Of a stretch of DNA of 35,294 nt, positions 1 to 35,294 are shown one piece after another. The notes under the pieces were generated by a model. The model saw nothing but the letters and a program-made list of their open reading frames with translations. It did no database searches and was not told where the DNA came from. The position numbers and the translations under genes are program-made. The stretch is taken from IMG/VR virus record IMGVR_UViG_3300025470_000005, positions 1 to 35,294 of that record, one strand, 5' to 3'. Position 1 is the stretch's first letter. Each line of letters begins with the position of its first letter. This stretch comes from a virus (taxonomy: Duplodnaviria > Caudoviricetes).

Positions 1-99
1 GCTCGCTGTGGTTGTTGTCACCCACGTCATGTGTGCTCACACCACTTGGTCTTTGTACGCGGGCCTTGATCTGATTGAGAGGTTTGACTGTCACGACTT
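1..99. repeat. 99-bp terminal direct repeat, copy 1 (circular assembly overlap)
   Basis: Positions 1-99 are identical to 35196-35294. A length of 99 is a common assembler k-mer. Confidence 0.95.
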
Positions 100-492
100 G
101 ATGTTCCTTAGTTTGGCAACAGCGTCAGCAAAGGCCTCAGCTTTGGCTTGAGCCACATCTTCTGACTCCACAGTTTCAACGTGTTGACGATCAGCTATGA
201 CCTTGCCCAGCAGCACCTTGTCATAGTCTCTCACACCCGTATGGTCTCCACGCGTCAATGCTTCCACATAGTTTAGTGCAATCTGTTCAGCATAGTCTTT
301 ACCAAGGTGACGACCCAGGCTTTGCAACAAGCCATCCATTGTGATCTTGTTGGTTGATCCTTTGGGACGTCCAGCACCAGCACGTGCGCCTCCACGACTT
401 GGCGTCTTAGATTTATAACTGCCACGCACTTTGACTGTGCCAGGCATGGCGATGACGTTGGTGTCTTGGGTGGGTTTGTCAGAACTGTTCAT
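91..492 (-). CDS. Candidate terminase small subunit / DNA-packaging DNA-binding protein
   Basis: Contains GGARAGAGRPKGSTNKIT, typical of TerS-like N-termini, followed by a helical core. First gene after a TAAATA motif. Its TGA overlaps the GTG of the 35041-35289 ORF across the junction (GTGA). Confidence 0.55.
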   Translation of the reverse strand: MNSSDKPTQDTNVIAMPGTVKVRGSYKSKTPSRGGARAGAGRPKGSTNKITMDGLLQSLGRHLGKDYAEQIALNYVEALTRGDHTGVRDYDKVLLGKVIADRQHVETVESEDVAQAKAEAFADAVAKLRNIKS

Positions 493-497
493 ACAGT

Positions 498-504
498 TAT
501 TTAG
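498..504 (-). promoter_or_regulatory. Late-promoter core CTAAATA
   Basis: CTAAATA-actgt-ATG, 5 nt before the start of 91-492, with no SD and no -35. Likely a leaderless transcript. Confidence 0.65.
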
Positions 505-567
505 CTTAAGATTTTTCAGAATCCTTTTCCGTTAGCGCGGGTTTGGCGTAGCAGATCGTTTGGTCAC

Positions 568-591
568 AAAAAAGCCCACACCAAGGTGGGC
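568..591 (-). terminator. Intrinsic terminator ending the early block
   Basis: Minus strand reads GCCCAC-cttggt-GTGGGC-TTTTTT, between the last early gene and the TerS-candidate promoter. Confidence 0.8.
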
Positions 592-621
592 CAAAACCTA
601 TAAACGGGGAGGCTTTAGGTT

Positions 622-831
622 TTAATAGAAAAATGTTTTTGATTCGTAATCATCCAGGATGTTTTTATCAACAAACAATCCTATTAATACAATATTAGGA
701 TGTGATGGATCAACAAAAAACCATTCAAAGTTGGTCCAAGGATCAGACTGTTGCTGTTGATATTCTGGATATTCATCCAGGAGATCTTTTAAATGCGGAT
801 TCTGTTCTAGTTGTAGTTGAGTAATAATCAT
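622..831 (-). CDS. Hypothetical protein, 69 aa (SHPNI-motif paralogue)
   Basis: ORF downstream of a consensus sigma70 promoter. Shares F.V..SHPNI..I with 919-1167. Confidence 0.7.
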   Translation of the reverse strand: MIITQLQLEQNPHLKDLLDEYPEYQQQQSDPWTNFEWFFVDPSHPNIVLIGLFVDKNILDDYESKTFFY

Positions 832-888
832 TAATGATTCTCATTGAGGCTTTAGGGTAAGCCTCCTAATGTTTAACAATGTGTGTTT

Positions 889-917
889 ATTATACTAATT
901 TTATTCATTTATGTCAA
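889..917 (-). promoter_or_regulatory. Consensus sigma70 promoter
   Basis: Minus strand TTGACA-17 nt-TATAAT, an exact consensus. Confidence 0.85.
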
Positions 918-918
918 A

Positions 919-1167
919 TCAACCGCATGTCTGGTGGCTGTAGCGGAGCCAGTCAACAAACTTCACAGGACCCGCATCATCATCATACCAATCATGTTGA
1001 CTCAACTTCATTAAGATAAAAGCAATGTTTGGATGGCTTTCTTTAACCAAAAACACATTTTTATGATAGATGTAGTTGTACTCTAGTGTGGCATCTTCAG
1101 GCCAAATCAGTTCATAGAGGTTGTTTCCCCTGTTAACCAAGTCATCAGGTATTTGTAGATAACGCAT
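919..1167 (-). CDS. Hypothetical protein, 82 aa (SHPNI-motif paralogue)
   Basis: Abuts the stop of 1168-1674. Contains FLVKESHPNIAFI. Confidence 0.7.
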   Translation of the reverse strand: MRYLQIPDDLVNRGNNLYELIWPEDATLEYNYIYHKNVFLVKESHPNIAFILMKLSQHDWYDDDAGPVKFVDWLRYSHQTCG

Positions 1168-1674
1168 TTACCAGTTTTCAATCCATTCAACATCTACACA
1201 CTTGCTAGGGCTTGCCAAAAACAGTTCATGTTCTCCCCAAGGCAAAGTATATCTAAAACCCAAATTCACATAATAGTCAGTATTGTCATCTAACTTTGCC
1301 AAATCAATCACAATGATTTCTATACCTTGTGTTCTTAGTTTTAGCAGAGTATTGCGTAGCACTCCTTTGCCGCGTGATCTAGGTTCTACATAGACATCTT
1401 CTACGCACCAAACGGGCTGTGCTGATGTGTGATCTTTGCCAATACTGGGGCGAATCATTGTCACATAACCAATAGTGCGTCCTTTGTGTTTAATCCAAAG
1501 ACATTTGCTGGTGTTTTCAAATGTTGCGTCCCAATGCTGTTTGGGCACACCTGCTACCACTTGATAGCCTTGTCGCCATTGTGTGCTAGAATTGTATTCA
1601 GCTACATAACGTTGTTGCCAAACATTAAAAATAGCATGATCAGACAGTTTTGCAGGTATGAGATCAAAGTTCAT
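1168..1674 (-). CDS. GNAT-family N-acetyltransferase
   Basis: Acetyl-CoA motif A (VEDVYVEPRSRGKGV) and motif B (YYVNLGF). Confidence 0.8.
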   Translation of the reverse strand: MNFDLIPAKLSDHAIFNVWQQRYVAEYNSSTQWRQGYQVVAGVPKQHWDATFENTSKCLWIKHKGRTIGYVTMIRPSIGKDHTSAQPVWCVEDVYVEPRSRGKGVLRNTLLKLRTQGIEIIVIDLAKLDDNTDYYVNLGFRYTLPWGEHELFLASPSKCVDVEWIENW

Positions 1675-1683
1675 AGTGTGCTT

Positions 1684-2049
1684 TCATTTGTAACGGGTAC
1701 AGACATGTGTGATCAATGCCCATTGTACAGTGTCAGGCCAGGCATACTGCCAAGTAGCATTTGGTGTGTTGGCTTGATATGTAACGTCCGTGGCTACAAT
1801 TCTTGTTTCATATGTGACTCTGTAGCTGTGGCTTGGGCAGTGACATTCAACACGCTGTACAGTTTGAGCGTTGTCATCATGTCTGCGGGTCCAAGCCACT
1901 AGAACTAGTCCTTGTGCCGCATGATGTGTCACGCTGGAGCTGTCATACTCATAGTCATAGTCGCTTTGATCTACAGCATAAGGCACCCATGTGGCAGCTG
2001 GCGCTGAAAGACTCAGTGTTAACGCTAAGACGCCAAGTGTGCGTTTCAT
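1684..2049 (-). CDS. Secreted/periplasmic protein, surface-adhesin-E-like
   Basis: Sec signal peptide MKRTLGVLALTLSLSAPA, then W..Y.D..S, a Cys and a C-terminal VC pattern resembling adhesin-E-family domains. Confidence 0.5.
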   Translation of the reverse strand: MKRTLGVLALTLSLSAPAATWVPYAVDQSDYDYEYDSSSVTHHAAQGLVLVAWTRRHDDNAQTVQRVECHCPSHSYRVTYETRIVATDVTYQANTPNATWQYAWPDTVQWALITHVCTRYK

Positions 2050-2219
2050 ACCAGTCCTGAGTAGTCCTGTTTGAAACTGTTGACAAACTCTGCCACATCC
2101 CTGTTTAGGTTGTCACGCATCCACAAGTGCAAGTAGTCGCCCAGTTCAGGCAAGTAGACCACAAGCTCTTCAGGAGTAAAACTTTTGAATACTGCCAGTT
2201 TAAATTCAAGTTGTGTCAT
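2046..2219 (-). CDS. Hypothetical protein, 57 aa (not in ORF track)
   Basis: MTQLEFKLAVFKSFTPEELVVYLPELGDYLHLW...; overlaps both neighbours by 4 nt, filling the gap exactly. Confidence 0.7.
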   Translation of the reverse strand: MTQLEFKLAVFKSFTPEELVVYLPELGDYLHLWMRDNLNRDVAEFVNSFKQDYSGLV

Positions 2220-2446
2220 AGTGCTGCCTCCAAATAGTTTGCTCTGCGAAACAATACATCATCATAGCATAATCCTATCTGTTGCTTTTCCCAACCTTCA
2301 GCACGAAGTTGATCAAAAAATTTGGATTTTTCTTCAGCATTCATATCAACCACATGGTCTTGAATTTCGCTTACAGTCATTGTGTCATAACTTTCTACAA
2401 TTTGTACAGGCATGGGTTTACCAAACATTTTTTCATAGTGATTCAT
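2216..2446 (-). CDS. Hypothetical protein, 76 aa
   Basis: ATGA overlap with the upstream gene 2443-2685. Confidence 0.75.
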   Translation of the reverse strand: MNHYEKMFGKPMPVQIVESYDTMTVSEIQDHVVDMNAEEKSKFFDQLRAEGWEKQQIGLCYDDVLFRRANYLEAAL

Positions 2447-2685
2447 TCTGCGGCCTCCAACTCTTTGCGAAGTTGGCGATGTTCTTCAACATCAAGATAT
2501 TGTTCTGCTATGTTCCATTTTACAAAGTTTAAATCATCTTCAAACCAATCCCAAGCATCATCTAAACTGTTGTATGTCTTACACAGATATGTTGCCTTGC
2601 CTTTGACCATTTTGGGTTTATTGGCAATCATAGCCAGGCATATTCTCTTTAGGGTGGCTTCTGGTGATAATACGCAATAGGTCAT
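2443..2685 (-). CDS. Hypothetical protein, 80 aa
   Basis: SD AAGGAC upstream; first gene after the repeat promoter at 2715-2767. Confidence 0.75.
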   Translation of the reverse strand: MTYCVLSPEATLKRICLAMIANKPKMVKGKATYLCKTYNSLDDAWDWFEDDLNFVKWNIAEQYLDVEEHRQLRKELEAAE

Positions 2686-2714
2686 TTGGGGTCCTTGTGT
2701 GTTTGTGTAGTGTT

Positions 2715-2767
2715 ATTATAGCGCACTTGTCATTTTTGACAAAATGCGCTGTTGTGTTTATGCAACA
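2715..2767 (-). promoter_or_regulatory. Early promoter repeat with upstream palindrome (copy C)
   Basis: TGTTGCATAAACACAACA ... TTGTCAAAAATGACAAGTGCGC-TATAAT. Confidence 0.75.
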
Positions 2768-2985
2768 GTATCTTGTGCGTAAGCGTTGTAGATTTCAACG
2801 TATTGGCGGATAGCTGTGTTGGCTCTGCGTTCAGCACAGTATTCAAAGTCCTTAAATGCTTCAAAAGCCGCGTCAAGTTCTTCCATATCTCTTGTGCGGC
2901 GTGCCAAGAACTCATAGATGTGTTGAGCCAAATCTGTTTCCAGTGTTGCCAGCTCTTGTTCGTTAAGTTTGATTGTGTGTGTCAT
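2758..2985 (-). CDS. Hypothetical protein, 75 aa
   Basis: Start moved to ATG 2985, which has SD AAAGGAC. The stop lies inside the palindrome (protein ends ...TVA*). Confidence 0.75.
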   Translation of the reverse strand: MTHTIKLNEQELATLETDLAQHIYEFLARRTRDMEELDAAFEAFKDFEYCAERRANTAIRQYVEIYNAYAQDTVA

Positions 2986-2991
2986 TTGCTG

Positions 2992-3067
2992 TCCTTTTGT
3001 GTTAAAGTAGTTCAATTATAGCGCACTTGTCTTTTTGGCACAAATGCCGTGTTGCATTTAAGCAACA
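2992..3067 (-). repeat. Early promoter/leader repeat (copy A, 76 bp)
   Basis: Matches 3236-3311 with one mismatch. Contains the palindrome, TTGTGC-17-TATAAT, leader and AAAAGGA SD. Confidence 0.9.
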
Positions 3068-3228
3068 CCTTGCTTGACAAAGTAGGCTGCTTGACGTGCC
3101 ATAGATCCATAGCGTACAGCGCCTGCACGTGCCATTGTGCGGGCCTGTTCTTGATCTACGCCAGACTGTGTCAAAAACTCATAGATTACAAGTTCAATGT
3201 CTGCAGGTGTGATTTTTTGCTGTGCCAT
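3058..3228 (-). CDS. Hypothetical protein, 56 aa (not in ORF track)
   Basis: MAQQKITPADIELVIYEFLTQSG...KQGVA*; SD AAAGGAAC; lies exactly between repeat copies A and B. Confidence 0.75.
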   Translation of the reverse strand: MAQQKITPADIELVIYEFLTQSGVDQEQARTMARAGAVRYGSMARQAAYFVKQGVA

Positions 3229-3235
3229 TTTCAGT

Positions 3236-3311
3236 TCCTTTTGTGTTAAAGTAGTTCAATTATAGCGCACTTGTCTTTTTGGCACAAATGCCGTGTTGCA
3301 TTTACGCAACA
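3236..3311 (-). repeat. Early promoter/leader repeat (copy B, 76 bp)
   Basis: Near-identical to 2992-3067. Confidence 0.9.
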
Positions 3312-3538
3312 GCCAATAGTGTTGTGCGGCTTGCTTGCCACAAGTCATCTAGGGGCTCAATCAACTCTATGTGTGTGGTCTCGCCAGCAAACGCACGCCA
3401 ACGGGCAAACTTTTGTTTACGTAGGTCGCCAAGTACAGCACGACAGCGTTGTTTATAGCGATCGCGTGTTGTTTTAACAAGTACCTCACGGCCAGGATGC
3501 GCGGGCGCACTGACACGTAGATATACAAGATCAATCAT
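3302..3538 (-). CDS. Hypothetical basic protein, 78 aa
   Basis: SD TAGGAG; ends ...AVA* inside the palindrome. Confidence 0.7.
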   Translation of the reverse strand: MIDLVYLRVSAPAHPGREVLVKTTRDRYKQRCRAVLGDLRKQKFARWRAFAGETTHIELIEPLDDLWQASRTTLLAVA

Positions 3539-3565
3539 AATAGACTCCTAAGTGGTTGAATTGTT

Positions 3566-3618
3566 ATTGTAGCGCAAGTGTCTTTTTGGCACAAATCTAC
3601 TGTTGCGTTTTTGCAACA
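3566..3618 (-). promoter_or_regulatory. Early promoter repeat with palindrome (copy D)
   Basis: TGTTGCAAAAACGCAACA ... TTGTGCCAAAAAGACACTTGCGC-TACAAT. Confidence 0.75.
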
Positions 3619-4063: not shown

Positions 4064-4480
4064 TTACTGGGTAAACAACTGGCTGTAATTGTTTGTGGGC
4101 TTGGGTGCCTGTCCTGCTGCGTTGGGCAAGTCAATGCCTGCACAGCGATTGTAAGTCTCGCGCATGGTCATGATGGCGGCCCAAGCATGGCGTTTGGTTT
4201 CACGCTTGTCAAGACTGCGTGGCTTGCTCATGTCAAGGTTCAAGCGTGCCTGTCTAATGTTGGCACTGTCATGTGAACGAAATGCACCAGGTTCCATGTC
4301 TTGCATTTCTTCAAGTGCTGTCAACATGTTGTCCCAATCCTCATTGGAGAACACATGCAGGTACTCACCCCATATCTGTTTGTTGTTGATGTTGATGGGC
4401 TCGTTGGTATCAGTGATCACTGAGTTCAACATGCGTGCCACATCAAATACCTGTTCTAGTCCTTTAACTGCGTTTGCCAT
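4064..4480 (-). CDS. Hypothetical helical protein, 138 aa
   Basis: SD AAAGG, coupled to the upstream gene; no family recognised. Confidence 0.75.
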   Translation of the reverse strand: MANAVKGLEQVFDVARMLNSVITDTNEPININNKQIWGEYLHVFSNEDWDNMLTALEEMQDMEPGAFRSHDSANIRQARLNLDMSKPRSLDKRETKRHAWAAIMTMRETYNRCAGIDLPNAAGQAPKPTNNYSQLFTQ

Positions 4481-4704: not shown

Positions 4705-5047
4705 AGAGATCTCTTAACAGAGATCTAATTAACTTCTTGCGAAGTTAATTTGTTTTCTTATTTAATACATCTTGTTGGAGCCGTAGGAACGGCTAACGCA
4801 AAGTTCTTAAAAAAAAGAGAAGTTGCGTGAACCGTTTCCTATAACTCCAACTGAACTGCATCTTGCGTCCCCATAAGGGGCGGCCTTTCAGCGAGGTTAC
4901 TTACGCCAGGTAATTATTGGGGAGACCTGTCTCATAGTCTACTCCCCGCCACATTGCTGTGACACCTGATGGCACCCCTGTTGTTCCCGTTTCGCGTAAG
5001 TTACTTTGGGCAGGTCTGGATTCGTTAGCCGTTATCATCTTAATCCA
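4705..5047 (-). ncRNA. Candidate large structured RNA / origin region
   Basis: Intergenic gap of about 370 nt with many stems, two GCAA tetraloops on the minus strand and an 11-bp perfect long-range inverted repeat (4788-4798 / 5023-5033). Confidence 0.5.
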
Positions 5048-5051
5048 AGTT

Positions 5052-5426
5052 TTAAGGGTTCTGTCTCAATGCCTTGATGCGTGTTCTATTTTGTGCCATA
5101 ATGTGTTCCCGTGAGTCAATTGCCATAACGATGTTGTTAAACTTTTTCCAAAACTTTTTATTCAATGGATAGCCTTTTTTATAGACTATATTCCAGTAAG
5201 CACCCCATGTGGCCTGCTCACTGAGATTCATTCTATGCCAAAGATCATCACGTATGTTGATCAGTATAATCACATCCGTGATTTGTGTGTGCCCATCCAA
5301 GTCATCCAAGTTGATGCCTTTGGTGCGTAACCATAGACCCACATTCCATTCTTGTCGTTGGGCATTAAGTTCATTGCTGTTGGCAGAACTCAATTTATTA
5401 TATTTTAGTGATGTATTGTTGCTCAT
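5052..5426 (-). CDS. Hypothetical protein, 124 aa
   Basis: Trp-rich globular-looking ORF; no family recognised. Confidence 0.7.
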   Translation of the reverse strand: MSNNTSLKYNKLSSANSNELNAQRQEWNVGLWLRTKGINLDDLDGHTQITDVIILINIRDDLWHRMNLSEQATWGAYWNIVYKKGYPLNKKFWKKFNNIVMAIDSREHIMAQNRTRIKALRQNP

Positions 5427-5577
5427 AAGTTGTTTGCCTATTTTGCTACCCCAGGAAAAGGTAGTGTGCTAGTTGATTCACGCAACCCCAACTAGCAAAA
5501 GTCTCCTACAGGGCTTTTGGCCAAACAACCCGTATCGTTGCGATACTGATAAAAACAAAGGCCCTGTGCGTATAAAG

Positions 5578-5584
5578 TATTTAG
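5578..5584 (-). promoter_or_regulatory. Late-promoter core CTAAATA
   Basis: Immediately upstream of the structured leader 5441-5570. Confidence 0.55.
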
Positions 5585-5625
5585 CTATTATTGCAAAAGA
5601 CTGTGTTTTTTGCAATCATTTTGGT

Positions 5626-5636
5626 TAAATATTTAG
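5626..5636. promoter_or_regulatory. Overlapping TAAATA cores on both strands (TAAATATTTA palindrome)
   Basis: TAAATA on + (5626-5631) and CTAAATA on - (5630-5636). Confidence 0.4.
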
Positions 5637-5703: not shown

Positions 5704-6000
5704 TTACCTCTGGCGAGCACTGATAGTTTCACCATTGAGACCCACAATGCCCACTTGTGGTTCCTCAGCCTGCTTACGCATTTCAATAGCCTGATTGGCC
5801 AGTTGAATGTATTCTGGTGTAAGTTCACCCTCACGCACAAAACCACGCAGGATCATGTTGACAAGACTAAAAATGTCTTGCTCAGTCATGCCTTGTGATT
5901 CCATGGCCAGTACCACATCTTCCAACACATGGATTAGACTTTTGTGTTGATGTTGTGGTTTGATAAACTTGTTGTCGTATTTGTTGTATTTTGTTTTCAT
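5704..6000 (-). CDS. Hypothetical protein, about 98 aa
   Basis: ATG at 6000 preferred because the TTG start at 6012 falls in the terminator U-tract. Confidence 0.65.
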   Translation of the reverse strand: MKTKYNKYDNKFIKPQHQHKSLIHVLEDVVLAMESQGMTEQDIFSLVNMILRGFVREGELTPEYIQLANQAIEMRKQAEEPQVGIVGLNGETISARQR

Positions 6001-6670: not shown

Positions 6671-6708
6671 GTTTATTTATAGTTGTTGTACAATACAACT
6701 AAATAAAC
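6671..6708. promoter_or_regulatory. Divergent late-type promoters
   Basis: Exact T4 consensus TATAAATA on - (6674-6681) facing the HNH gene and CTAAATA on + (6699-6705) facing the GNAT gene, arranged as an inverted repeat. Confidence 0.7.
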
Positions 6709-7563: not shown

Positions 7564-7574
7564 AAGGCAATACA

Positions 7575-27974: not shown

Positions 27975-27997
27975 ACATTACCTTAATACAGTAAAGT

Positions 27998-28006: not shown

Positions 28007-30307
28007 TCAAAATGCTCTGGCTTTGTGTTCACCAATAAGACTGACTCCATCCAATTGCATCTTGGCACTTGCGCCGCTGACATCAGCCATGACTTGTTGT
28101 GTCTTGGCTTGATCCAATGCTGCGCTGGCTTTGTCTTTGAGTTCAGCTGCTGGCGGATTGGCTTTGGCTGCTTCTGCTGCTGCTTGTGCTTTCTGTGCTG
28201 CTTGTTGTGCCATTTTAGCGGCTTCTTCCAACGTGACAAGATACACATCTGCTTCTTTGACACTGAGTGCATACAACATGTCTTCGTATGGCTTGCGTAT
28301 TTTCTTAAACAGTGTAGGATCATCAATACCATTGACAATCATTTGTTGTAGTTCAGCGTTGAATTGTGTTTGTGCCTGTTTGATCAACTGTATACGTTGC
28401 AAACTGTTTTCTTCACTGTTCATGCCCATGGCTAAATCAATGTGAATTGTTTTACGTTCATTGAAGTCATAGTTTTCAAAGCGTTCACCATCCATAAAAA
28501 CGGGTTTGCCTTCTGGGTGGAACTCTTGTGCCAGTTTACGCACACCCCAATCATCTGCATGTGCAACCAGTGTACGCCAAATTAACCAAATGGCATCCTT
28601 CAAGCCTTCAGCACAATTTTTAACTGTGTTGTCTTGAATAATTTGGTTTGGACTTAGAGCCAAGTTTAGTTTGGCACCTGAATTACCTGGATCCATAACT
28701 TCTGGATTGAATACGTCTTGTGGCGTGGTCATGCCCACCATGGCCATTTGGTCTTGCTGCATACGTTGCAGTGTATTGTCCATAAACGTTGGATTACCTT
28801 GTGGTGTTGGCAATGCGTAGATGTCTTTGGTAGGATCAAACTTGCTGTCCAAAATAAAGATAGCAGCTTCACCGTCTTGAATCATTTCAAAGTCCACACG
28901 ATCTGGCTTGACACCAATACGTGGAGTTGACTGTAGCAAGCCCATCATTAGTTCTGCGCGATATCCTGATGTCATGTACTCTTGCATTGGAGTCACAGAT
29001 TCAGCAATACTCATACCATAGAAGTTTTGTGGCAGTGGTTTTGGTACCATGTTGGCCACAGGAATAAATTCTACTTCACGTGCGCTGATAACATACTGAC
29101 CACTATAGATCAATTCAACAAGTTCCAACTCGCCGTCGCCGTCAATATCGTAGCGGTTCCAAACAGTAAGCACAGTAACTTGACGTGCTTCTGGTTCTTG
29201 TGCTGCATAGCCTTGTGCTGGCAATCCATTAATAGGCACGCTATCACGAGCATGGATGGCCAAATTGTTGAGCAAGCTACCAGCCTGATAGCTGCCCACG
29301 TTTGAGTATTCCGCATAGATCTTGAACTCCTCTAGATCAATGTCTGGATACAACTCAGTTGCTTCTTGAATACTCATTGGTTTGTAGAAACCGCAGAAAG
29401 GTTGCTCTTGAATTTCTATCACAGTGGGGTCACACATCCAATAGTGTTGCGCTATAGGACGGAACTTGACGTTCACTGTGTAACCAGTCAGCTTATACTC
29501 TGCATCATAAATGGTGTTACGAGCAATAGCTTCGCTTAGGGCGTCTTCGCCTTCTTGTAGTTGTACATTGTTTTCGTCTGTGTGATCTTCAAATGGCTGT
29601 TCCTCAAAATCACCACCAGCAATGGCCTTACTGCGGTCAATACGCTCTTGAATTAGTTGTTGTGCCTGCTTGTCATCTGCGGCGTGTAGAAACTGTTGTG
29701 TTTCTGCTGCTACCTTGGCTAGGTCAACACCTTTTTTACGACGACTGTTGCGTTTTACTTTTAGGCCTGATTCTTCTGCTTGTTGTTCAAATGCTTTTAG
29801 TTGGTCTTCTGTACCGCTTGTGGTTACATAACGAACAACCTGCTCGCGCATGGGAGCAATCAACATCTCGCCGTTTTTGTGTAGGCAAGCATCCATGGTC
29901 CAGTGTTGTAGAATAAAGTGAGGATCATTGTTTTGGTTAATAATCTTGTGAACCATTTCTGTGGCTTGACGTGCTGCTGCCTCGTCATCTTCATTGTCCG
30001 CTACAAATTCAAAATTGATCTCACCATTTTGTGCAAGTCCTTTGACAATGACTGCACTGCTGTAATCAACTACGGGTTTTACTGTGGGATGGATATAGTC
30101 AATGCCATTAACTGGTTCTGTTGACTGTGTCATGGCCAGAACCAAATAGTGATAATCGCTGGTTCTGTTGATGTTGTTCTTTGTTGCTAATAAGCGCAAG
30201 TTGGCCGCACATTTTTGGTCCAACAAACTCTTCATTTTTACAAAACGAGCGAGACTGCCGCTGTTTGTGTTTAAGTTGCTTACAACAACATTCTTTAGGT
30301 TAAGCAT
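28007..30307 (-). CDS. Portal protein (P22-like, with C-terminal helical barrel)
   Basis: EDDEAAARQATE, YDIDGDGELEL, P.P..FYG.SIAE...MQ and a Q/A-rich C-terminal helix; follows TerL. Confidence 0.9.
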   Translation of the reverse strand: MLNLKNVVVSNLNTNSGSLARFVKMKSLLDQKCAANLRLLATKNNINRTSDYHYLVLAMTQSTEPVNGIDYIHPTVKPVVDYSSAVIVKGLAQNGEINFEFVADNEDDEAAARQATEMVHKIINQNNDPHFILQHWTMDACLHKNGEMLIAPMREQVVRYVTTSGTEDQLKAFEQQAEESGLKVKRNSRRKKGVDLAKVAAETQQFLHAADDKQAQQLIQERIDRSKAIAGGDFEEQPFEDHTDENNVQLQEGEDALSEAIARNTIYDAEYKLTGYTVNVKFRPIAQHYWMCDPTVIEIQEQPFCGFYKPMSIQEATELYPDIDLEEFKIYAEYSNVGSYQAGSLLNNLAIHARDSVPINGLPAQGYAAQEPEARQVTVLTVWNRYDIDGDGELELVELIYSGQYVISAREVEFIPVANMVPKPLPQNFYGMSIAESVTPMQEYMTSGYRAELMMGLLQSTPRIGVKPDRVDFEMIQDGEAAIFILDSKFDPTKDIYALPTPQGNPTFMDNTLQRMQQDQMAMVGMTTPQDVFNPEVMDPGNSGAKLNLALSPNQIIQDNTVKNCAEGLKDAIWLIWRTLVAHADDWGVRKLAQEFHPEGKPVFMDGERFENYDFNERKTIHIDLAMGMNSEENSLQRIQLIKQAQTQFNAELQQMIVNGIDDPTLFKKIRKPYEDMLYALSVKEADVYLVTLEEAAKMAQQAAQKAQAAAEAAKANPPAAELKDKASAALDQAKTQQVMADVSGASAKMQLDGVSLIGEHKARAF

Positions 30308-30332
30308 TCTGAGATTACCTTTTACAATATAG

Positions 30333-30339
30333 TATTTAG
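30333..30339 (-). promoter_or_regulatory. Late-promoter core CTAAATA
   Basis: In the 35-nt gap between TerL and portal. Confidence 0.65.
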
Positions 30340-30342: not shown

Positions 30343-31968
30343 CTATTCATCCGCGCTGTACACACGCTTCCAAGGTGGGCGTTCTATGGCTGCTTGTTGT
30401 GCTTGACGCACACGCAAGTTATGAGCAGCGTCTCTAAAACGCTGTTGGGGACTGCGACTATCCCAGGGTTCTGCCCAGCCATTTAGGCATCCAAGTAGGG
30501 CATAACGTGCTGAGTCAATGCAGTCATCAGGATCGCTAAAGCGTCCTTTGTCATCTACGTAGTAGTTTTGGCATTCACGCAGGAATTCTACACAATTTTC
30601 ATTGATATGGAATGTGCCCAACTCCATCATTTGGCGCATCATGTTTATACCAAAGCTCTTGTGGTTTGTGACACGTCCTTGTTCATCTGCGGGATTGTGT
30701 ATGGGCTCTGGATACACATTGAGTTCGTATTGTTCAAACAGTTGTCTAATGCTGAGTGCGCTCATGGTGTAGCGTCCCACAGTGCCCGCATCTGGAGGCA
30801 GCACAATAGGAGTGCCAAACACTTCTGGACGCATGAGATGCTGCACATAATTGATGGGGTTGGCTTCTTCTGTGCCTTTGACCACTATTTGCTTATCCAG
30901 CCATGCTTCTTGTTCGTTAGGCATCCAGTAGATTAGGCTCAACACTGTCTTGTCATTGACAAGTCCTAGGTCAAGAGCAATAAGCCTATAAATGCCGCTA
31001 GTATTACGGAAGTCATAATCACCAGTTTTATAAGTGGGCCAGTTTCTAATTTGAAACACAGCTCCCTTGCCCATAACAGGAACGCCATTACGACGAGCAT
31101 CGCGTTCATGAGGTAGATAATCTCGTTCAAGTTGTAGCCTTGTTGAATTTAATAGGAATGGTTCGCCCCAGGGATCATATTCAGGTACATCATCCCAGCT
31201 GACACGTATGTGTTCATAACCATCTTCATGGTTCCAAAACTTACTTACCAGTCCATTTAGACCTTTCAATGGTGTGAACGAGCAAAGAACTTGGCCTTGC
31301 GTTGTGGCAGTACGTGTTACAATTTCACTGAAGAAGTCATCAGGTGGTTGTTCGTCAAATATGGCCAAGTTCAGTTTGAAACCTTGCATCTGACGTACTT
31401 CCTGTGTGTAGTTGGCAAACAACAAATAACTGTTGCTACCACTACGGTGTTTGATCTCAACACCAATACAGTTGGCACCATCGCCACGCATGGTATCAAA
31501 CACAATACATTCTCTGGGAATGGCACCTGTGCCAATGGCATCACGGATTTTGACATCATTGGTGCCTAATAATTCTGCTTGCAATACCAGCGCAACCTGA
31601 CTCCAACCTTCACCAGCAACCATGGCTGTGACAGGTTTGTCAAAGCGTTTACCATCCCACCATTCAGGATAACGTCCAGTCAAGTGACATGCTGTTTCAA
31701 AACAGGTTGACACTGTTTTACCAATACGGTTGGCAGCAAGGATACCCCTACGTGGACTAGCACCAGTTCTAAAAAACTTGCGCTGATGTTCAAAGGGCCT
31801 AAAGTACTTGAGTTGGTTATAGCGCATGTCCTCTGCAATGGCAATGGCATATTCCTGTAGGCTGGCCTTGGCTCCAGGAGGCAATTGATCAATGATGTGT
31901 AGGGGTACGTTTTGTTGTTCGCAACAATAGCGTACCGCACGCCGCATGAGCACAGCAGTATCAATCAT
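30343..31968 (-). CDS. terL: Terminase large subunit
   Basis: Walker A AANRIGKT, Walker B AIFDEQPP, coupling motif FTPLKG, nuclease ALDLG...DDCIDSARY. Confidence 0.95.
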   Translation of the reverse strand: MIDTAVLMRRAVRYCCEQQNVPLHIIDQLPPGAKASLQEYAIAIAEDMRYNQLKYFRPFEHQRKFFRTGASPRRGILAANRIGKTVSTCFETACHLTGRYPEWWDGKRFDKPVTAMVAGEGWSQVALVLQAELLGTNDVKIRDAIGTGAIPRECIVFDTMRGDGANCIGVEIKHRSGSNSYLLFANYTQEVRQMQGFKLNLAIFDEQPPDDFFSEIVTRTATTQGQVLCSFTPLKGLNGLVSKFWNHEDGYEHIRVSWDDVPEYDPWGEPFLLNSTRLQLERDYLPHERDARRNGVPVMGKGAVFQIRNWPTYKTGDYDFRNTSGIYRLIALDLGLVNDKTVLSLIYWMPNEQEAWLDKQIVVKGTEEANPINYVQHLMRPEVFGTPIVLPPDAGTVGRYTMSALSIRQLFEQYELNVYPEPIHNPADEQGRVTNHKSFGINMMRQMMELGTFHINENCVEFLRECQNYYVDDKGRFSDPDDCIDSARYALLGCLNGWAEPWDSRSPQQRFRDAAHNLRVRQAQQAAIERPPWKRVYSADE

Positions 31969-32330
31969 TAAAGACCTTTACTGATTTGTTCTAAGTAATA
32001 GGCAGCACGGGCAAGGTCAGCAAGTTCGCTGGTGTTGAGTCTCCATGTACTAGGTTGTCCAGGATCTTCTTCACCTTGCTTTTCAAAACTGCGCTGTAGA
32101 CGTTCCATTGTGAGACGTAGGCAATGACGCACCTGTCTTGGATAACGTTGTTCAAACGCATCAAGATGTGCGCCGTTGACCTTTTGCATGATCTTTGTGT
32201 CAGCCACTGCCAAGGCCTCTAAGTCACCAGCAAGTCCTGTCGCGATGTGTGCGTTAGGATCTGGCGCTGACTTAACAGGCTTGGTAAGTATGGGACGTCT
32301 TGGAACGAAACTCGTCATTACATGTTCCAA
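31968..32330 (-). CDS. Hypothetical protein, 120 aa (alternative TerS candidate)
   Basis: Helical and coupled to the terL start; no diagnostic motif. Confidence 0.6.
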   Translation of the reverse strand: MEHVMTSFVPRRPILTKPVKSAPDPNAHIATGLAGDLEALAVADTKIMQKVNGAHLDAFEQRYPRQVRHCLRLTMERLQRSFEKQGEEDPGQPSTWRLNTSELADLARAAYYLEQISKGL

Positions 32331-33022
32331 GGATTGTCAATGGCTTGACTTGCATCACCACCTATAACAAAGTCACGGTCAATCCAGGTTTCCCATTGTG
32401 TCTTGTTGCCAATTTTCATTTTGCTCATGAAGTTTTTTAGGCGTGTGCCCATGGGAGTGATCTCACCACTTGGCCAACGAATAACCTGTTCACCTGTGCG
32501 TGGATCAACCCATTCATACTTTTCTGGTACCTTCTGTCCAAACTTGTTTACACGCTCACCAACTGCACGTTGTGCGATGGGTCCCATGACTTCATAGGTA
32601 ATGGTGTTGTCAATGTACTTCTTGAACAGTACGCTACACTTTTGTCCTGTAGCTGCCCACGAAGGATCTGGATGAGGAAATGTGTCACATTGGAATTGGC
32701 TAACTGGAATGTGACTACGAATGTGATAGGGACGTGCGGGAATTGGTTTCATTGCGTCCACAGGCACAATGTCATTCTTGTCTAGGTAGGGATTTTCTCC
32801 ACCAACCAGGGCTGGGTCTGGTTCACCGCCGTTGAGAATGTGCATGGCAGTTTCATATTTGAACTTGTTGCTGCGACCCTTGAGGTTCACAGTATAACCA
32901 GTTTGATCAAATACAAACTTTTCTAATTCACGGGCTGTGGGGAAGTCTGTTTGCAAGCCCTCTAGATCATATAAGGGTTCGCTGTGTGCGGGCGCTGCCG
33001 CTGTGGTTGTTGTTTTTTTCAT
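32318..33022 (-). CDS. Hypothetical protein, 234 aa
   Basis: SD AAAGGT; preceded by a structured leader and a TAAATA core. Confidence 0.8.
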   Translation of the reverse strand: MKKTTTTAAAPAHSEPLYDLEGLQTDFPTARELEKFVFDQTGYTVNLKGRSNKFKYETAMHILNGGEPDPALVGGENPYLDKNDIVPVDAMKPIPARPYHIRSHIPVSQFQCDTFPHPDPSWAATGQKCSVLFKKYIDNTITYEVMGPIAQRAVGERVNKFGQKVPEKYEWVDPRTGEQVIRWPSGEITPMGTRLKNFMSKMKIGNKTQWETWIDRDFVIGGDASQAIDNPWNM

Positions 33023-33111: not shown

Positions 33112-33462
33112 TTAATCTTTGTATTTGTTTTTACGTGCTGTAAAGCGTTGGTGCTGATTGTCTTCAATTGATCCACCTTCAGGAACTTCATGTTCTCCAG
33201 GATTGGCTTCAAGCTGTCTAGCACGACCCTCAAACGCTCTAGAGATGTGGTCACTCAATTCATAGCGTTCTGATTTGGCATCTAGGAAGTTGCCACGCTT
33301 GGCACGGTGTGCGCCTTCATTGCCTGTGCGTGGACCCTGTGCCACGTTGACATTGTCACGTGCATGTGGATTGCGTCCAAACGACTCGTCACGTGTGTCA
33401 GCACGGTCTGCTGTGCTGTTTTTCTCAATATAGACTTTGCCTGTGTATTCTCTCATGATCAT
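33112..33462 (-). CDS. Charged, disordered hypothetical protein
   Basis: ATGA overlap with the upstream gene; R/H/D/E-rich. Confidence 0.7.
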   Translation of the reverse strand: MIMREYTGKVYIEKNSTADRADTRDESFGRNPHARDNVNVAQGPRTGNEGAHRAKRGNFLDAKSERYELSDHISRAFEGRARQLEANPGEHEVPEGGSIEDNQHQRFTARKNKYKD

Positions 33463-33659
33463 TTACCTTTGTGCATGTGCTTTAGCGTTTCAGCTAGGTG
33501 GGCACGTCGTGCCAGTGCGGGGTTCTTGCTGTGTTCAGCGCGAGCCAATTTAGCTGCTGGAATAGTTTTGCCTGCTGCCACATGTAGTTCTTTGTGTAGC
33601 ACGCCTGGATGTTTAATGGCCTGTGCGATCCAGTGTCGCCCTTTTGTAGAATGTTCCAT
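33459..33659 (-). CDS. Small basic conserved phage protein
   Basis: WIAQAIKHPG.LHKEL.V..GK.IP..KL...RA.LAETLK pattern; SD AAGGAG. Confidence 0.8.
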   Translation of the reverse strand: MEHSTKGRHWIAQAIKHPGVLHKELHVAAGKTIPAAKLARAEHSKNPALARRAHLAETLKHMHKGK

Positions 33660-33668
33660 AGCTGCTCC

Positions 33669-33983
33669 TTAGTATGGCAATGTGGAGATTGGTACAATGT
33701 ACACGTTGCCGCTGCCGTAAATGGCTGTGGTTAGAATAGTTAAGTTGCTGGCCACTAGCGGTGGAGCTAGAGGAGCAGTGACTTTGCTTTCACCAGGTTG
33801 TACAACAATGTTGGCAAAGCTGGTGCCACCTGTGGGAAACACTGCAACTTTAACTGGTGTGCCGCCTGTGGGCACTACAACGTCAAAGCTGGCACTACCG
33901 CCTGCTGTGTGATATGTTAGTGTGCTTGTGGTTGTTGCTGTGACAGCAATGGGTTCACCACGTGCGATATAGTGTGCGCTCAT
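33669..33983 (-). CDS. Small all-beta protein (possible capsid decoration)
   Basis: T/V/G-rich strands ending GNVYIVP; function is inference. Confidence 0.6.
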   Translation of the reverse strand: MSAHYIARGEPIAVTATTTSTLTYHTAGGSASFDVVVPTGGTPVKVAVFPTGGTSFANIVVQPGESKVTAPLAPPLVASNLTILTTAIYGSGNVYIVPISTLPY

Positions 33984-33985
33984 GA

Positions 33986-34402
33986 TTAACGGCTAGCCTT
34001 TGTGATATAGATAGCGTCAGAGTTAGCGTATGCTGGACGTTTACCAAATGGTTCAATGGGATGTCCTTGTGCTGCTGTGCTAACAGTACGACGATTAGGA
34101 TCTTTGGTAACGCTGGGTCCAATTGACTCCATACGATCCGCATGACTGTCTGAGGCATTGCCCTTACGGTTAGATTCCATGAGTCCATGATTGATCATGT
34201 CTGGATTCTTTACCATGTGTGCCATTGGATTCGCGCATAGGTGTTCACGACCATGTGTCTTGTTAACGCCATCGCCCATCTGTCCGTTAAAGGCAAACGC
34301 CTTGCCATCGCCCTGTTGCGTCTTAGCAGTGCGTGGAGCATACATGCCTTCACCCTTGTGTAAGCCTGTTGCTGTCTTACGGTTTAATGTTGTGTTTTTC
34401 AT
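33986..34402 (-). CDS. Basic, disordered hypothetical protein
   Basis: Tightly packed in the operon; K/H/M/G-rich. Confidence 0.7.
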   Translation of the reverse strand: MKNTTLNRKTATGLHKGEGMYAPRTAKTQQGDGKAFAFNGQMGDGVNKTHGREHLCANPMAHMVKNPDMINHGLMESNRKGNASDSHADRMESIGPSVTKDPNRRTVSTAAQGHPIEPFGKRPAYANSDAIYITKASR

Positions 34403-34403
34403 T

Positions 34404-34706
34404 TTACATTCCCTTTAGTTTACGCACTGCGTGATGGTCGTCTTCATGTTTGCGTCCATCTGTGTGTTTCATGTTTGCTGGATGACTGTGGCGTGTTTGC
34501 ATTGCAGGATGTGCTGTGTGATGCACTTGCTCCTCAACGCCACCCGCTTGTTCAAAGTCAGCATGTTCATCATCAGAGTGCAAGGCACGTTGACCCATGC
34601 GACCTGGTCCCGCCTTGTTGTGTTCCATACGGGCTTGTTCACTGCCCTGCTTCATAACCATGCTTGTTGGGTTTAGGTTATACACACCCTTTGTTAGTTT
34701 TGACAT
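34404..34706 (-). CDS. His-rich hypothetical protein
   Basis: HHTAHP...RHSHP..KH...KHEDDHH; TAATG overlap with the upstream gene. Confidence 0.7.
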   Translation of the reverse strand: MSKLTKGVYNLNPTSMVMKQGSEQARMEHNKAGPGRMGQRALHSDDEHADFEQAGGVEEQVHHTAHPAMQTRHSHPANMKHTDGRKHEDDHHAVRKLKGM

Positions 34707-34999
34707 TAGTCCATTCCCTTTGTTGAGACCTGTTCGCCCACGTCCTCTAGACTTTGTGGTGCGTTGTTTAGTTTAGCAGCCATTGTGTCTGAATGACGTA
34801 CTGTGTTTGGCGCAATAGCTTTATGGTAGTGCAGACTACGTGCGCTTGAATGTTCGCTGTGATGAGCAGTTTTATGAGCAGCCGCACGCTTTTCACTGTA
34901 TGCGATTGCCACTGCTTGAGGTTGTGGCTTGCCAGCAGCTAGCTCGCGTTTGATGTTTTCTCCAAACGCTTGTTTGCTGGTGCTTTTAATTAGTGGCAT
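34706..34999 (-). CDS. Small basic phage protein (QAVAIA family) with His-rich extension
   Basis: MPLIKS.SK.AF.ENIK.E..AGKP..QAVAIAYS; SD AAAGGA. Confidence 0.8.
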   Translation of the reverse strand: MPLIKSTSKQAFGENIKRELAAGKPQPQAVAIAYSEKRAAAHKTAHHSEHSSARSLHYHKAIAPNTVRHSDTMAAKLNNAPQSLEDVGEQVSTKGMD

Positions 35000-35017
35000 T
35001 GCGATATCCTTTATTAT

Positions 35018-35024
35018 TATTTAG
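35018..35024 (-). promoter_or_regulatory. Late-promoter core CTAAATA
   Basis: In the gap upstream of 34706-34999, followed by an SD. Confidence 0.65.
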
Positions 35025-35040
35025 TCTCATTGTTACGGGA

Positions 35041-35289
35041 TCAATTGGCCAAGCCTGGGTAACGTCTCGCGCTGGCACCATAGTTACCTGGGTTTAGGCG
35101 CTCCGTGGCCTTGTCTCCAAACGCACCAGTATCCATGGGACGAGCACTGGCACTCACAATGACCTTGTGATAGTGTTCGCTGCGTTTAGCAACATGCTCG
35201 CTGTGGTTGTTGTCACCCACGTCATGTGTGCTCACACCACTTGGTCTTTGTACGCGGGCCTTGATCTGATTGAGAGGTTTGACTGTCAC
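35041..35289 (-). CDS. His-motif hypothetical protein, 82 aa
   Basis: GTG start overlaps the TerS-candidate stop across the circular junction; HSEH...RSEHYHK. Confidence 0.7.
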   Translation of the reverse strand: MTVKPLNQIKARVQRPSGVSTHDVGDNNHSEHVAKRSEHYHKVIVSASARPMDTGAFGDKATERLNPGNYGASARRYPGLAN

Positions 35290-35294
35290 GACTT
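35196..35294. repeat. 99-bp terminal direct repeat, copy 2
   Basis: Identical to 1-99. Confidence 0.95.

What the first reader, a model, noticed from the sequence alone, without database searches (positions are those of the whole stretch)
1..35294. Virion-complete phage with T4-type late promoters but no sigma factor or replisome: candidate virophage-like satellite of a large phage
Seen: an apparently complete circle encoding terminase, portal, scaffold, capsid, tail, fibres and ejection proteins. I recognise no DNA polymerase, primase, helicase, SSB, integrase, RNA polymerase, sigma factor or endolysin, and all unassigned non-structural ORFs are 234 aa or shorter. Late units start at TAAATA cores with no -35. 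Known: T4 late promoters (TATAAATA) are read only with phage gp55 and gp33 and are activated by the gp45 sliding clamp, which couples them to replication. Known satellites (P4, PICI, PLE, cf-PICI) replicate themselves and borrow structural parts. Inference: this element shows the reverse dependency. It would build its own particle but borrow replication, late transcription and possibly lysis from a co-infecting T4-like or other large phage.
Basis: partly seen in the sequence, partly recalled or inferred. Interest (0 to 1): 0.9.

Follow-up and report, generated by a model that had tools for sequence, protein, structure and literature searches.

The report
Small phage parasitising jumbo-phage late transcription
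This complete 35-kb lake phage and its many relatives encode a whole virion but no recognisable late sigma factor or lysis enzyme, and put a T4-style promoter word in front of their virion genes that their self-sufficient sister phages lack, so they likely reproduce only in cells co-infected by a large phage, probably a roughly 350-kb jumbo phage.

Summary
Observation confirmed. The window is a true 35,195-bp circle; independent contigs cross the join. TAAATA is the most intergenic-enriched hexamer (16 of 18 sites), is depleted in coding DNA, has no -35 and often sits 4-5 nt before ATG, the T4-late geometry. No sigma, replicase, integrase or lysin was found. The strongest evidence is comparative. 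A sister clade with the same virion module keeps initiator, recombinase and endolysin genes and lacks the promoters (portal: 0 of 40 loci against 63 of 73 here). Large phages sharing the window's early-promoter cassette carry gp55-type sigmas; the relaxed promoter consensus fits the RaK2/CBB-like jumbo class best. Corrections: the full TATAAATA occurs once; 10 of 48 relative lineages carry their own primase/helicase or PolA-like primase, so borrowed replication is not family-wide; gp33/gp45 were not detected in the jumbos; helper-replicated satellite phages are already published (MiniFlayer). Dependence is inferred: no helper, host or co-infection is shown, and one unassigned 98-aa core protein remains a possible own activator. 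The scan noted the same pattern on five other genomes. New variant of a known kind; about 0.7 likely.

The parts
1..99 (.). terminal repeat (assembly overlap), identical to 35196-35294; genome is a 35,195-bp circle
   Evidence: join crossed by G053 and by contigs of runs X1, X11, X14
91..492 (-). family-specific core ORF, 133 aa, GGARxGAGRPKGS motif; terminase-small-subunit-like (label recalled, no call confirms it); leaderless behind TAAATA
   Evidence: 10 of 11 family genomes, 0 of 8 sister; alignment; no PDB hit
498..503 (-). TAAATA late-type promoter core, 5 nt before the ATG of 91-492; first promoter of the late region
573..592 (-). intrinsic-terminator-like hairpin plus T run that closes the sigma70 early region before the TAAATA at 503
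   Evidence: consensus scan, function inferred
622..3538 (-). variable early region: ten small ORFs (one GNAT, 1168-1674) behind sigma70-type promoters
   Evidence: the six of these ten ORFs that my caller clustered were singletons among 11 genomes
889..917 (-). perfect sigma70 promoter TTGACA-17-TATAAT
2692..3618 (-). four 76-nt repeats (2692-2767, 2992-3067, 3236-3311, 3543-3618): TGTTG-N8-CAACA stem-loop, sigma70-like promoter and ribosome site, each before a small ORF; PeSL-like cassettes
   Evidence: the same cassette pattern matches about 1200 viral stretches including 100-345 kb contigs
4064..4480 (-). 138-aa ORF, unassigned, not core
   Evidence: 2 of 11 genomes by clustering; no family hit
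4759..4764 (-). TAAATA core before 4482-4682 and 4064-4480
5052..5426 (-). 124-aa ORF directly behind the structured leader, in the slot where other relatives carry primase/helicase or a PolA-like protein
   Evidence: 15 homologues, no Pfam; 3 of 11 genomes by tblastn
5427..5577 (-). conserved structured leader: CGCAAYG hairpin, then a long stem ending near the next ATG; function unknown
   Evidence: 15 lineages by motif rule; no Rfam match; the window's copy has insertions and was not recovered by my covariance model
5578..5635 (.). promoter cluster: TAAATA at 5578-5583 (-), 5630-5635 (-) and 5626-5631 (+), with an overlapping weak sigma70-like site 5615-5587 (-)
5704..6000 (-). 98-aa three-helix core protein specific to the family; the remaining candidate for an own regulator or initiator
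   Evidence: 11 of 11 family, 0 of 8 sister
6118..6657 (-). HNH endonuclease with C-terminal extension, behind TAAATA
   Evidence: PHROG E 1e-12; 8 of 11 genomes
6674..6705 (.). divergent TAAATA pair (6674-6679 minus, 6700-6705 plus)
6725..8001 (+). plus-strand unit: 171-aa GNAT-like ORF (weak, E 0.01), 108-aa ORF, GroES-like co-chaperonin (7560-7847), small core ORF
   Evidence: GroES 11 of 11 family, 0 of 8 sister
8164..8646 (-). Dps/ferritin-like protein, following the ejection genes; the sister clade has its lysis genes in that position
8647..14309 (-). predicted ejection proteins; TAAATA at 13090-13095 and, inside a gene, 8763-8768
   Evidence: phrog_2534 for 9735-12338; the rest by position (inferred)
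14331..23510 (-). tail fibres, fibre chaperone (14342-14785) and virion structural protein (17908-19542); TAAATA at 14331-14336 and, inside a gene, 17964-17969
23521..24873 (-). virion structural protein 23521-24252 and 203-aa ORF 24252-24863, leaderless 4 nt behind TAAATA 24868-24873
   Evidence: the 203-aa ORF is in 8 of 8 sister genomes, so it is not a TAAATA-specific activator
24925..26370 (-). major capsid protein, SU10 type
   Evidence: PF17236 E 1e-29; 483 viral relatives
26396..28003 (-). predicted scaffold (by position) and 120-aa ORF behind TAAATA 27998-28003
   Evidence: motif before the 120-aa gene in 77 of 77 family loci
28007..30338 (-). portal, behind TAAATA 30333-30338
   Evidence: PF23899 E 1e-44; motif in 63 of 73 family loci, 0 of 40 sister
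30343..31968 (-). terminase large subunit
   Evidence: tree
32318..33022 (-). 234-aa core ORF: small helical N-domain plus beta domain; not sigma-like
   Evidence: in 8 of 8 sister genomes, 40% identical in MW202484
33101..33106 (-). TAAATA core before 32318-33022 and the terminase
33112..35195 (-). cluster of small basic core ORFs, unassigned; TAAATA at 35018-35023

Best explanation
The window is a complete podovirus-type genome that encodes its own virion but no recognisable late sigma factor, replicase or lysin, and it is likely a satellite virus whose TAAATA promoters would be read by host RNA polymerase carrying the gp55-type sigma of a co-infecting large phage, probably a RaK2/CBB-like jumbo. 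Steps. (1) Shown: the same virion module exists in an autonomous-looking sister clade with initiator, annealing, resolvase and endolysin genes and without these promoters. (2) Inferred: the family arose from such a phage by losing that block and rewiring virion, terminase and accessory genes to helper late promoters. (3) Inferred: after entry by its own tail, host sigma70 reads only the variable early cassettes, closed by a terminator at 573-592; virion genes stay off until the helper's late sigma appears. (4) Least certain: replication starts in the exchangeable slot at about 4000-5700. The window has no enzyme there and would use helper or host proteins; some relatives bring their own primase and helicase. 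(5) Inferred: the cell is lysed by the helper.
For: Motif statistics and depletion in genes. No -35, and ATG 4-5 nt behind the hexamer in 9 of 11 genomes for one gene and 6 for another, which rules out a TATA box ~25 nt upstream and fits T4 late promoters, which have no -35 element (PMC2988020, passages). Promoter-positioned sites per genome: 8-15 in 11 family genomes, 0-2 in 8 sister genomes. Per gene: portal 63 of 73 against 0 of 40, 120-aa gene 77 of 77 against 1 of 25, 203-aa gene 59 of 72 against 2 of 32 loci (not dereplicated). Both groups are clades on a terminase tree (41 and 40 sequences, support 0.87 and 0.99). Sister genomes: initiator hit in 6 of 8, endolysin in 7 of 8, annealing protein in 8 of 8; none of these in 11 family genomes. 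gp55 family: 0 of 12 family records, 9 of 18 large contigs that share the early cassette; five of the nine have 301-316 aa sigmas, and the one searched is closest to PA5oct-, CBB- and RaK2-like jumbos. CBB has 35 predicted ATAAATA late sites and a gp55-like sigma (PMC5259590, passages). A at -1: family 44 of 108, jumbos 48 of 121 (p 0.89), canonical T4-like 29 of 38 (p 0.0003). Candidates for an own activator fail or are shared with the sister clade; the 98-aa core gene itself has TAAATA upstream in 7 of 11 genomes.
Against: All dependence is inferred from absence and motif match; no co-infection, abundance covariation or host is shown. 10 of 48 lineages encode their own primase/helicase or PolA-like protein, including a relative whose 98-aa protein is 93% identical to the window's (L515). 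The 98-aa protein is universal in the family, absent from the sister clade and unassigned; its best, sub-threshold fold matches are small DNA binders (GapR Z 4.2, rmsd 7.7, 69 residues), and GapR is reported as homologous to T4 DsbA (PMC7824862, passage). Leaderless share resembles canonical T4-like phages, not the jumbos (25 of 108 against 56 of 121, p 0.0003; against 6 of 38, p 0.49). Genes shared with jumbos (Dps, superoxide dismutase, methyltransferases) are generic, and the sister clade also shares DNA with the large phages. The early cassette is in only about 5 of 11 family genomes and occurs in both classes of large phage. Only 2 jumbos and 2 T4-like genomes were profiled. The two clades were each collected with their own query, so intermediates were not sampled; the contrast is one evolutionary event. 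Four early ORFs were never clustered and most small ORFs were not folded.
Confidence: 0.7

Rival explanations
1. Autonomous phage: a small unrecognised protein (best candidate 5704-6000) acts as late specificity factor or activator at TAAATA, replication uses host enzymes from the slot at 4000-5700, and lysis uses an unrecognised single gene.
For: The 98-aa protein is in 11 of 11 family and 0 of 8 sister genomes, exactly tracking the promoter; weak likeness to small DNA-binding folds; 2 of 119 members touch the gp33 Pfam model at E 0.014. The family is abundant (483 capsid loci). Some members have primase and helicase.
Against: Profile comparison with gp55, gp33 and DsbA gives 0.07%, 0.17% and 0.43% (the last two profiles had only 2 sequences). 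The gene lies behind TAAATA itself in 7 of 11 genomes, and no sigma70 site was called upstream of it in the window. No ORF of 40 tested has a transmembrane-like stretch and no endolysin is found. Independent invention of exactly the T4-family late word would be needed.
Confidence: 0.15
2. Helper-dependent, but on a canonical 150-170 kb T4-like phage with gp55, gp33 and gp45.
For: Four such contigs share the early cassette and have canonical gp55; two tested carry gp33 and gp45. Leaderless share matches them. GroES hits G037.
Against: Their late sites have A at -1 in 29 of 38 cases against 44 of 108 in the family (p 0.0003); codon usage correlates less (0.83-0.89 against 0.91-0.92, confounded by GC). 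Dps hits 0 of the 4 canonical T4-like contigs and 4 of the 5 with the long sigma. This share is counted inside the 0.7 for helper dependence.
Confidence: 0.15
3. The host's own RNA polymerase, with an unusual primary or alternative sigma, reads TAAATA; the phage is autonomous in a host not yet identified.
For: Host unknown: only one distant terminase (33%) in 185,579 species genomes.
Against: The phage's early promoters are textbook TTGACA-17-TATAAT, so the host's main sigma is sigma70-like; TAAATA lacks the conserved final T of the -10 box (established knowledge). Large phages with the same early cassette encode their own gp55-type sigma alongside this word. It does not explain the missing lysis genes.
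Confidence: 0.1
4. Assembly artefact, or one segment of a larger or bipartite genome.
For: Metagenomic origin; two related contigs (G009, G011) are 50-54 kb with two different terminases, so chimeras occur in this family.
Against: Independent contigs cross the join; 5 further genomes close as circles of 33.9-36.7 kb with the same order; the 98-aa family was seen on no contig above 58.5 kb among 120 listed hits. A separately packaged second segment cannot be excluded but would amount to a helper.
Confidence: 0.03

Closest known systems
Streptomyces satellite viruses MiniFlayer and MulchRoom (PMC10690885; abstract, 8 passages and section 12 read)
   Same: Own terminase, portal, capsid and scaffold, an HNH nuclease, no recognisable replicase; MiniFlayer has no integrase; helper is a large virulent phage.
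   Different: They have 20-26 genes and were shown with their helpers in culture. The words 'promoter' and 'sigma' do not occur in that paper. Here the proposed link is late transcription through a gp55-type sigma, the genome is 35 kb with a full tail, fibre and ejection set, an autonomous-looking sister clade is visible, and dependence is unshown.
T4-family late promoters, gp55/gp33/gp45 (PMC2988020, passages; CBB, PMC5259590, passages; PMC7824862, passages)
   Same: TAAATA core, no -35, start about 5 nt downstream, placed before virion genes.
   Different: Only the 6-nt core is conserved, and the genome has no gp55, gp33 or gp45.
PLE of Vibrio cholerae (PMC7145576, abstract only), P4, PICI, cf-PICI (as summarised in PMC10690885 and PMC13587820, passages)
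   Same: Parasites of a lytic helper; PLE replication needs the phage. Some family members carry primase plus helicase, as P4/PICI-type elements do (recalled).
   Different: Those integrate and borrow capsids or tails. This family has no integrase hit and makes the whole particle.
Sister clade: MW202484 (Podoviridae sp. ctfne034) and 19 viral records of 38-45 kb
   Same: Terminase 52%, portal 46%, capsid 62% identical, same gene order in the head cluster.
   Different: Keeps initiator, SSB, Erf/Sak, RusA, endolysin; lacks TAAATA promoters, GroES, the window's Dps family and the 98-aa protein.
Virophages of giant viruses (PMC13359090, passages)
   Same: Self-packaging hyperparasite of a giant virus; use of the giant's late promoter is recalled from Sputnik and mavirus, not from a call.
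   Different: Bacterial host and tailed-phage ancestry; analogy only. That 2026 review names only ICP1 satellites, MiniFlayer and one transduced island for large phages.

Membership tests
Bacteriophage satellite virus (MiniFlayer type) | encodes its own capsid and packaging genes | tested here: met
Bacteriophage satellite virus (MiniFlayer type) | no recognisable replicase | tested here: met
   met for the window and for 15 of 18 lineages whose slot is fully covered; not for 10 of all 48 lineages
Bacteriophage satellite virus (MiniFlayer type) | cannot propagate without a helper phage | not testable with these tools
   needs culture or single-cell data
Bacteriophage satellite virus (MiniFlayer type) | a specific helper infecting the same host | tested here: inconclusive
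   candidate class found by cassette, sigma and promoter consensus; no host known; nucleotide matches to four large genomes are short gene-level similarities
T4-type late promoter | 8-bp consensus TATAAATA | tested here: not met
   1 of 18 window sites; TA prefix in 16 of 108 family promoter sites; only the TAAATA core is kept
T4-type late promoter | no -35 element | tested here: met
T4-type late promoter | transcription starts about 5 nt downstream | tested here: inconclusive
   conserved ATG 4-5 nt downstream fits; start sites not mapped
T4-type late promoter | read by gp55-RNA polymerase, activated by gp33/gp45 | not testable with these tools
   needs reporter or in vitro transcription; gp33/gp45 models hit 2 of 2 canonical T4-like and 0 of 2 jumbo genomes, while PMC7824862 reports gp33 orthologues and clamps in this jumbo group
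P4 / PICI / PLE / cf-PICI | integrase and chromosomal residence | tested here: not met
   no integrase hit; no close copy in the species-genome collection
P4 / PICI / PLE / cf-PICI | borrows capsid or tail from the helper | tested here: not met
   head, tail and fibre genes present
gp55 / gp33 / DsbA (for ORF 5704-6000) | sequence-profile or fold match | tested here: inconclusive
   profile probabilities under 0.5%; no viral fold match; best PDB Z 4.2, within noise
PeSL cassettes of T4-type phages (PMC2839356, PMC4122927; search listing only) | repeated sigma70-like promoter with stem-loop flanking small variable ORFs (definition recalled) | tested here: met
   no sequence comparison with the published PeSLs was made

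The most novel reading that the evidence does not exclude
A widespread, abundant family of freshwater tailed phages are bacterial virophages: obligate parasites of RaK2/CBB-like jumbo phages that evolved from an autonomous podovirus by discarding replication control and lysis and rewiring every virion gene to the jumbo's late sigma. The window's lineage has gone furthest, replacing primase and helicase with a structured RNA element and a 124-aa protein that feed its genome to the helper's replisome.
Probability: 0.45. Interest if true: 0.9.

Novelty: new variant of a known kind. Interest (0 to 1): 0.74.

Why it matters
If true, satellite viruses of bacteria are not a Streptomyces curiosity but a common, lake-wide lifestyle, and jumbo phages have virophage-like parasites wired through their late sigma. 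The family gives a before-and-after pair (sister clade against reduced clade) for how an autonomous phage becomes a satellite. It also gives a simple screen for hidden satellites among 'complete' metagenomic phages: a foreign late-promoter word with no cognate sigma. Many ordinary-looking 35-kb phage genomes would have to be recounted as hyperparasites that limit jumbo-phage bursts.

Tried and rejected
Specific early-cassette patterns found 0 and 5 viral stretches, the five all family members; only the loose pattern reached large phages (scan stopped after 7 of 64 parts, 125 loci). A loose pattern for the leader was mostly chance. The idea that the leader is the origin and excludes primase/helicase was weakened: lineage L486 has both. 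The idea that the leader mimics a helper element found no support: no hit in 51 loci of four large genomes, with a weak model (6 base pairs) that also missed the window's own copy. Gene sharing as evidence for the helper was rejected as non-specific: my clustering had merged an iron superoxide dismutase (not in the window) into the 234-aa family, and the sister clade shares DNA with large phages too. 32318-33022 and 24252-24863 were rejected as activators because 8 of 8 sister genomes have them; fold searches for 32318-33022 gave best Z 4.5 and one uncharacterised viral match. No listed family for 5704-6000: ESM Atlas best 0.81, 62 of the 80 distant homologues scanned without PHROG hit, PDB sequence hits only to unrelated or designed helical proteins. 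4064-4480 and 5052-5426 were not folded (two jobs only). No tRNA, no Rfam match. No RNA holder listed among 24 runs, which says nothing on expression. The maximum-likelihood tree did not finish; FastTree was used. Host not found. Abundance covariation not tested. Literature: nine searches, of which looked for this kind of element; none listed a paper describing it. The library lacks most subscription journals, and CBB Table S7 was not seen.

Full report
1. The observation. The window ends in a 99-nt exact repeat, so the genome is a 35,195-bp circle. This is not a mis-circularised fragment: contig G053 covers 30021-35294 and 1-3268 at 100% identity in one piece, and contigs of runs X11, X14 and X1 (the last possibly the source) cross the same join. 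All 24 listed holder runs are freshwater or lake DNA. Pfam and PHROG scans of 50 ORFs name terminase, SU10-type portal and capsid, virion structural proteins, fibres, a fibre chaperone, an ejection protein, an HNH nuclease, GroES, Dps and a GNAT, and nothing for replication, transcription, integration or lysis (NCBIfam on 29 window ORFs). A gp55 profile and 17 replication or lysis proteins from relatives find nothing in 637 six-frame segments. None of 40 small and medium ORFs has a transmembrane-like stretch at the threshold used.

2. The motif. TAAATA occurs 18 times, 16 in intergenic DNA (5.4% of the genome); two of the 16 overlap stop codons. Shuffles never exceeded 10, it is the top hexamer for intergenic enrichment, and it is depleted inside genes on both strands (2 against 11.7, 0 against 12.0). 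Over 179 intergenic sites in 11 genomes there is no -35 signal, and two genes start 4-5 nt behind the hexamer in 9 and 6 genomes. That spacing fits a -11 to -6 promoter core with leaderless messages (inferred) and matches T4 late promoters, which lack a -35 element (PMC2988020, passages). The full TATAAATA appears once. The window also has a sigma70 early region: four stem-loop promoter cassettes (2692-3618), a perfect promoter at 917-889 and a terminator at 592-573 just before the first TAAATA.

3. The family. The capsid protein has 483 relatives in the viral collection (80 kept). Ten near-complete relatives of 33.9-36.8 kb share the gene order; two 50-54 kb contigs hold two different terminases and are more than one unit. 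Among 131 accessory proteins of these ten, Pfam found methyltransferases, glycosyltransferases and fibre parts but no replicase, sigma or lysin.

4. The sister clade is the control. The only close named record, MW202484, shares terminase (52%), portal (46%) and capsid (62%) but has SSB, Erf, RusA, a Cro-like regulator and a chitinase-type lysin. It led to 46 further loci; 7 whole genomes were fetched. Of 109 sister accessory proteins I scanned 49, which gave initiators, helicase, SSB, annealing proteins, RusA, endolysins and a spanin. Initiator hits occur in 6 of 8 sister genomes, endolysin in 7 of 8, and none of these in 11 family genomes. Promoter-positioned TAAATA numbers 8-15 per family genome and 0-2 per sister genome. 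By gene: 63 of 73 against 0 of 40 (portal), 77 of 77 against 1 of 25, 59 of 72 against 2 of 32 (loci not dereplicated). Each group is a clade on a terminase tree rooted on one distant sequence. Promoter gain and loss of the replication-control and lysis block thus fall on the same branch. It is a single event, and intermediates were not sampled.

5. Could the phage read the promoter itself? 32318-33022 and 24252-24863 are in 8 of 8 sister genomes, and the model of 32318-33022 is not sigma-like. 4064-4480 and 5052-5426 are not core. 5704-6000 is the real candidate: 11 of 11 family, 0 of 8 sister, 181 homologues, 80 clusters of mostly 60-130 aa. Its model is three helices (pLDDT 82) with no significant fold match and profile probabilities below 0.5% against gp55, gp33 and DsbA. 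Its top, sub-threshold match is GapR, which PMC7824862 (passage) calls a homologue of T4 DsbA; DsbA is non-essential and had no effect on late transcription in vitro according to PMC2988020. The gene has TAAATA upstream in 7 of 11 genomes, awkward for a first activator. The loophole is narrow but open.

6. Who could read it? The early cassette pattern matches about 1200 viral stretches (125 loci returned). Of 18 large contigs tested, 9 encode a gp55-family sigma; 0 of 12 family and 0 of 6 sister records do. Four are canonical T4-like contigs of 106-172 kb; five are pieces or wholes of roughly 350-kb jumbos with a 301-316 aa sigma, the one searched being closest to those of PA5oct-, CBB- and RaK2-like phages (37-41%). 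CBB has a gp55-like sigma and 35 predicted ATAAATA sites, with no gp33 or gp45 detected (PMC5259590). In two jumbos, 63 and 58 TAAATA sites are promoter-positioned with a free -1 base, as in the family (A in 44 of 108 against 48 of 121); two canonical phages prefer A (29 of 38; p 0.0003). Codon usage leans the same way (0.91-0.92 against 0.83-0.89) but is confounded by GC. Against: the leaderless share matches the canonical class, and gene sharing is non-specific. gp33 and gp45 models hit only the canonical genomes, though PMC7824862 reports both kinds in this jumbo group, so clamp coupling is open.

7. The region behind 5704-6000 is an exchangeable slot. Among 48 distinct lineages, 7 have primase plus superfamily-3-type or related helicase, 3 a PolA-like protein whose predicted structure resembles primase-polymerases fused to D5 helicases (TV-Pol, PMC2579912, abstract; the assignment is a lead), 15 a structured leader behind TAAATA, 6 other unknown ORFs with the slot fully covered, and 17 are partial with nothing recognisable in view. 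Of 18 fully covered lineages, 15 have no recognisable replication enzyme. A very close relative (L515) has the PolA-like gene, in two pieces, where the window has leader plus 5052-5426. No replicative DNA polymerase was found in any member scanned. The leader has a CGCAAYG hairpin and a long stem kept through different sequences; it is not in Rfam, was not found in the large phages, and co-occurs with primase/helicase in L486, so its role as origin is unproven.

8. Mechanism and odds. Most likely (0.7) this is a self-packaging satellite that enters alone, expresses only variable early genes with host sigma70, and makes virions when a co-infecting large phage supplies a gp55-type sigma and later lyses the cell. 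Within that 0.7, about 0.55 goes to the jumbo class and 0.15 to canonical T4-like helpers. An own small activator (0.15), a host sigma (0.1) and artefact (0.03) remain. Shown: circle, gene content, motif, contrast with the sister clade, existence of candidate helpers with the same signals. Inferred: promoter function, helper identity, dependence, lysis route.

9. Known and new. Satellite viruses of bacteria are published (MiniFlayer, MulchRoom: PMC10690885; Ando, tail-less: PMC13587820, passages), and PLE needs its phage to replicate (PMC7145576, abstract). A 2026 review of giant viruses and jumbo phages lists no such family (PMC13359090, passages), and searches found none. New would be the late-sigma link, the jumbo helper, the breadth of the family and the visible autonomous sister. 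The scan's own notes describe the same pattern on five other genomes, and one note on a TAAATA phage with replication genes saw no need for a helper; these are unchecked notes, not independent support, and a sequence look-up found no note on this capsid family. Verdict: real feature, new variant of a known kind, interest 0.74.

Noticed in passing
window 5427-5577 (-); L100:9524-9636, L083:16405-16520, L093:9976-10089, L082:14897-15016, L530:4456-4567 and others: Structured leader RNA candidate with a CGCAAYG hairpin, a long sequence-variable stem closing near the ATG and a GUGG/GUGCGAA-type loop, in 15 lineages before unrelated small ORFs; no Rfam match. Worth its own study.
   Followed up: partly
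L097:280-1446, L089:13183-14754, L515:906-1976: Stand-alone PolA-superfamily (TV-Pol-like) proteins with no Pfam or PHROG hit; the ESM Atlas shows many unnamed clusters of them.
   Followed up: partly
window 2692-3618: PeSL-like early cassettes; ORF 2443-2685 with its cassette is 91% identical in G007, whose capsid is only 67% identical, suggesting recent cassette exchange.
   Followed up: partly
window 6118-6657: HNH nuclease conserved in place in 8 of 11 genomes next to the replication slot; may serve packaging, recombination-dependent initiation or attack on helper DNA.
   Followed up: no
window 7560-8646; L086:13889-14392; L091:6513-7145: Family carries genes typical of large phages: GroES and Dps in 11 of 11, iron superoxide dismutase in 4 genomes, and a PHROG 3704 protein 74% identical to one in T4-like G044.
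   Followed up: partly
L527:9376-10245: One relative has an AAA ATPase (phrog_1250) in the replication slot, with 26% homologues in both jumbos.
   Followed up: no
window 4683-5051: 369-nt non-coding stretch, the longest in the genome, with a TAAATA and a T run; possible origin or RNA; not examined.
   Followed up: no
L497, L500, L504 (G007, G008, G009) and G005: The 98-aa core gene lies inverted relative to its neighbours in 4 of 11 genomes.
   Followed up: no
G009, G011: 50-54 kb viral records holding two different family terminases 35,264 nt apart: probable chimeric assemblies of two relatives.
   Followed up: partly
window 15507-15814 (-): 18-nt periodic hexapeptide beta-helix repeat in the 1057-aa tail protein.
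   Followed up: no
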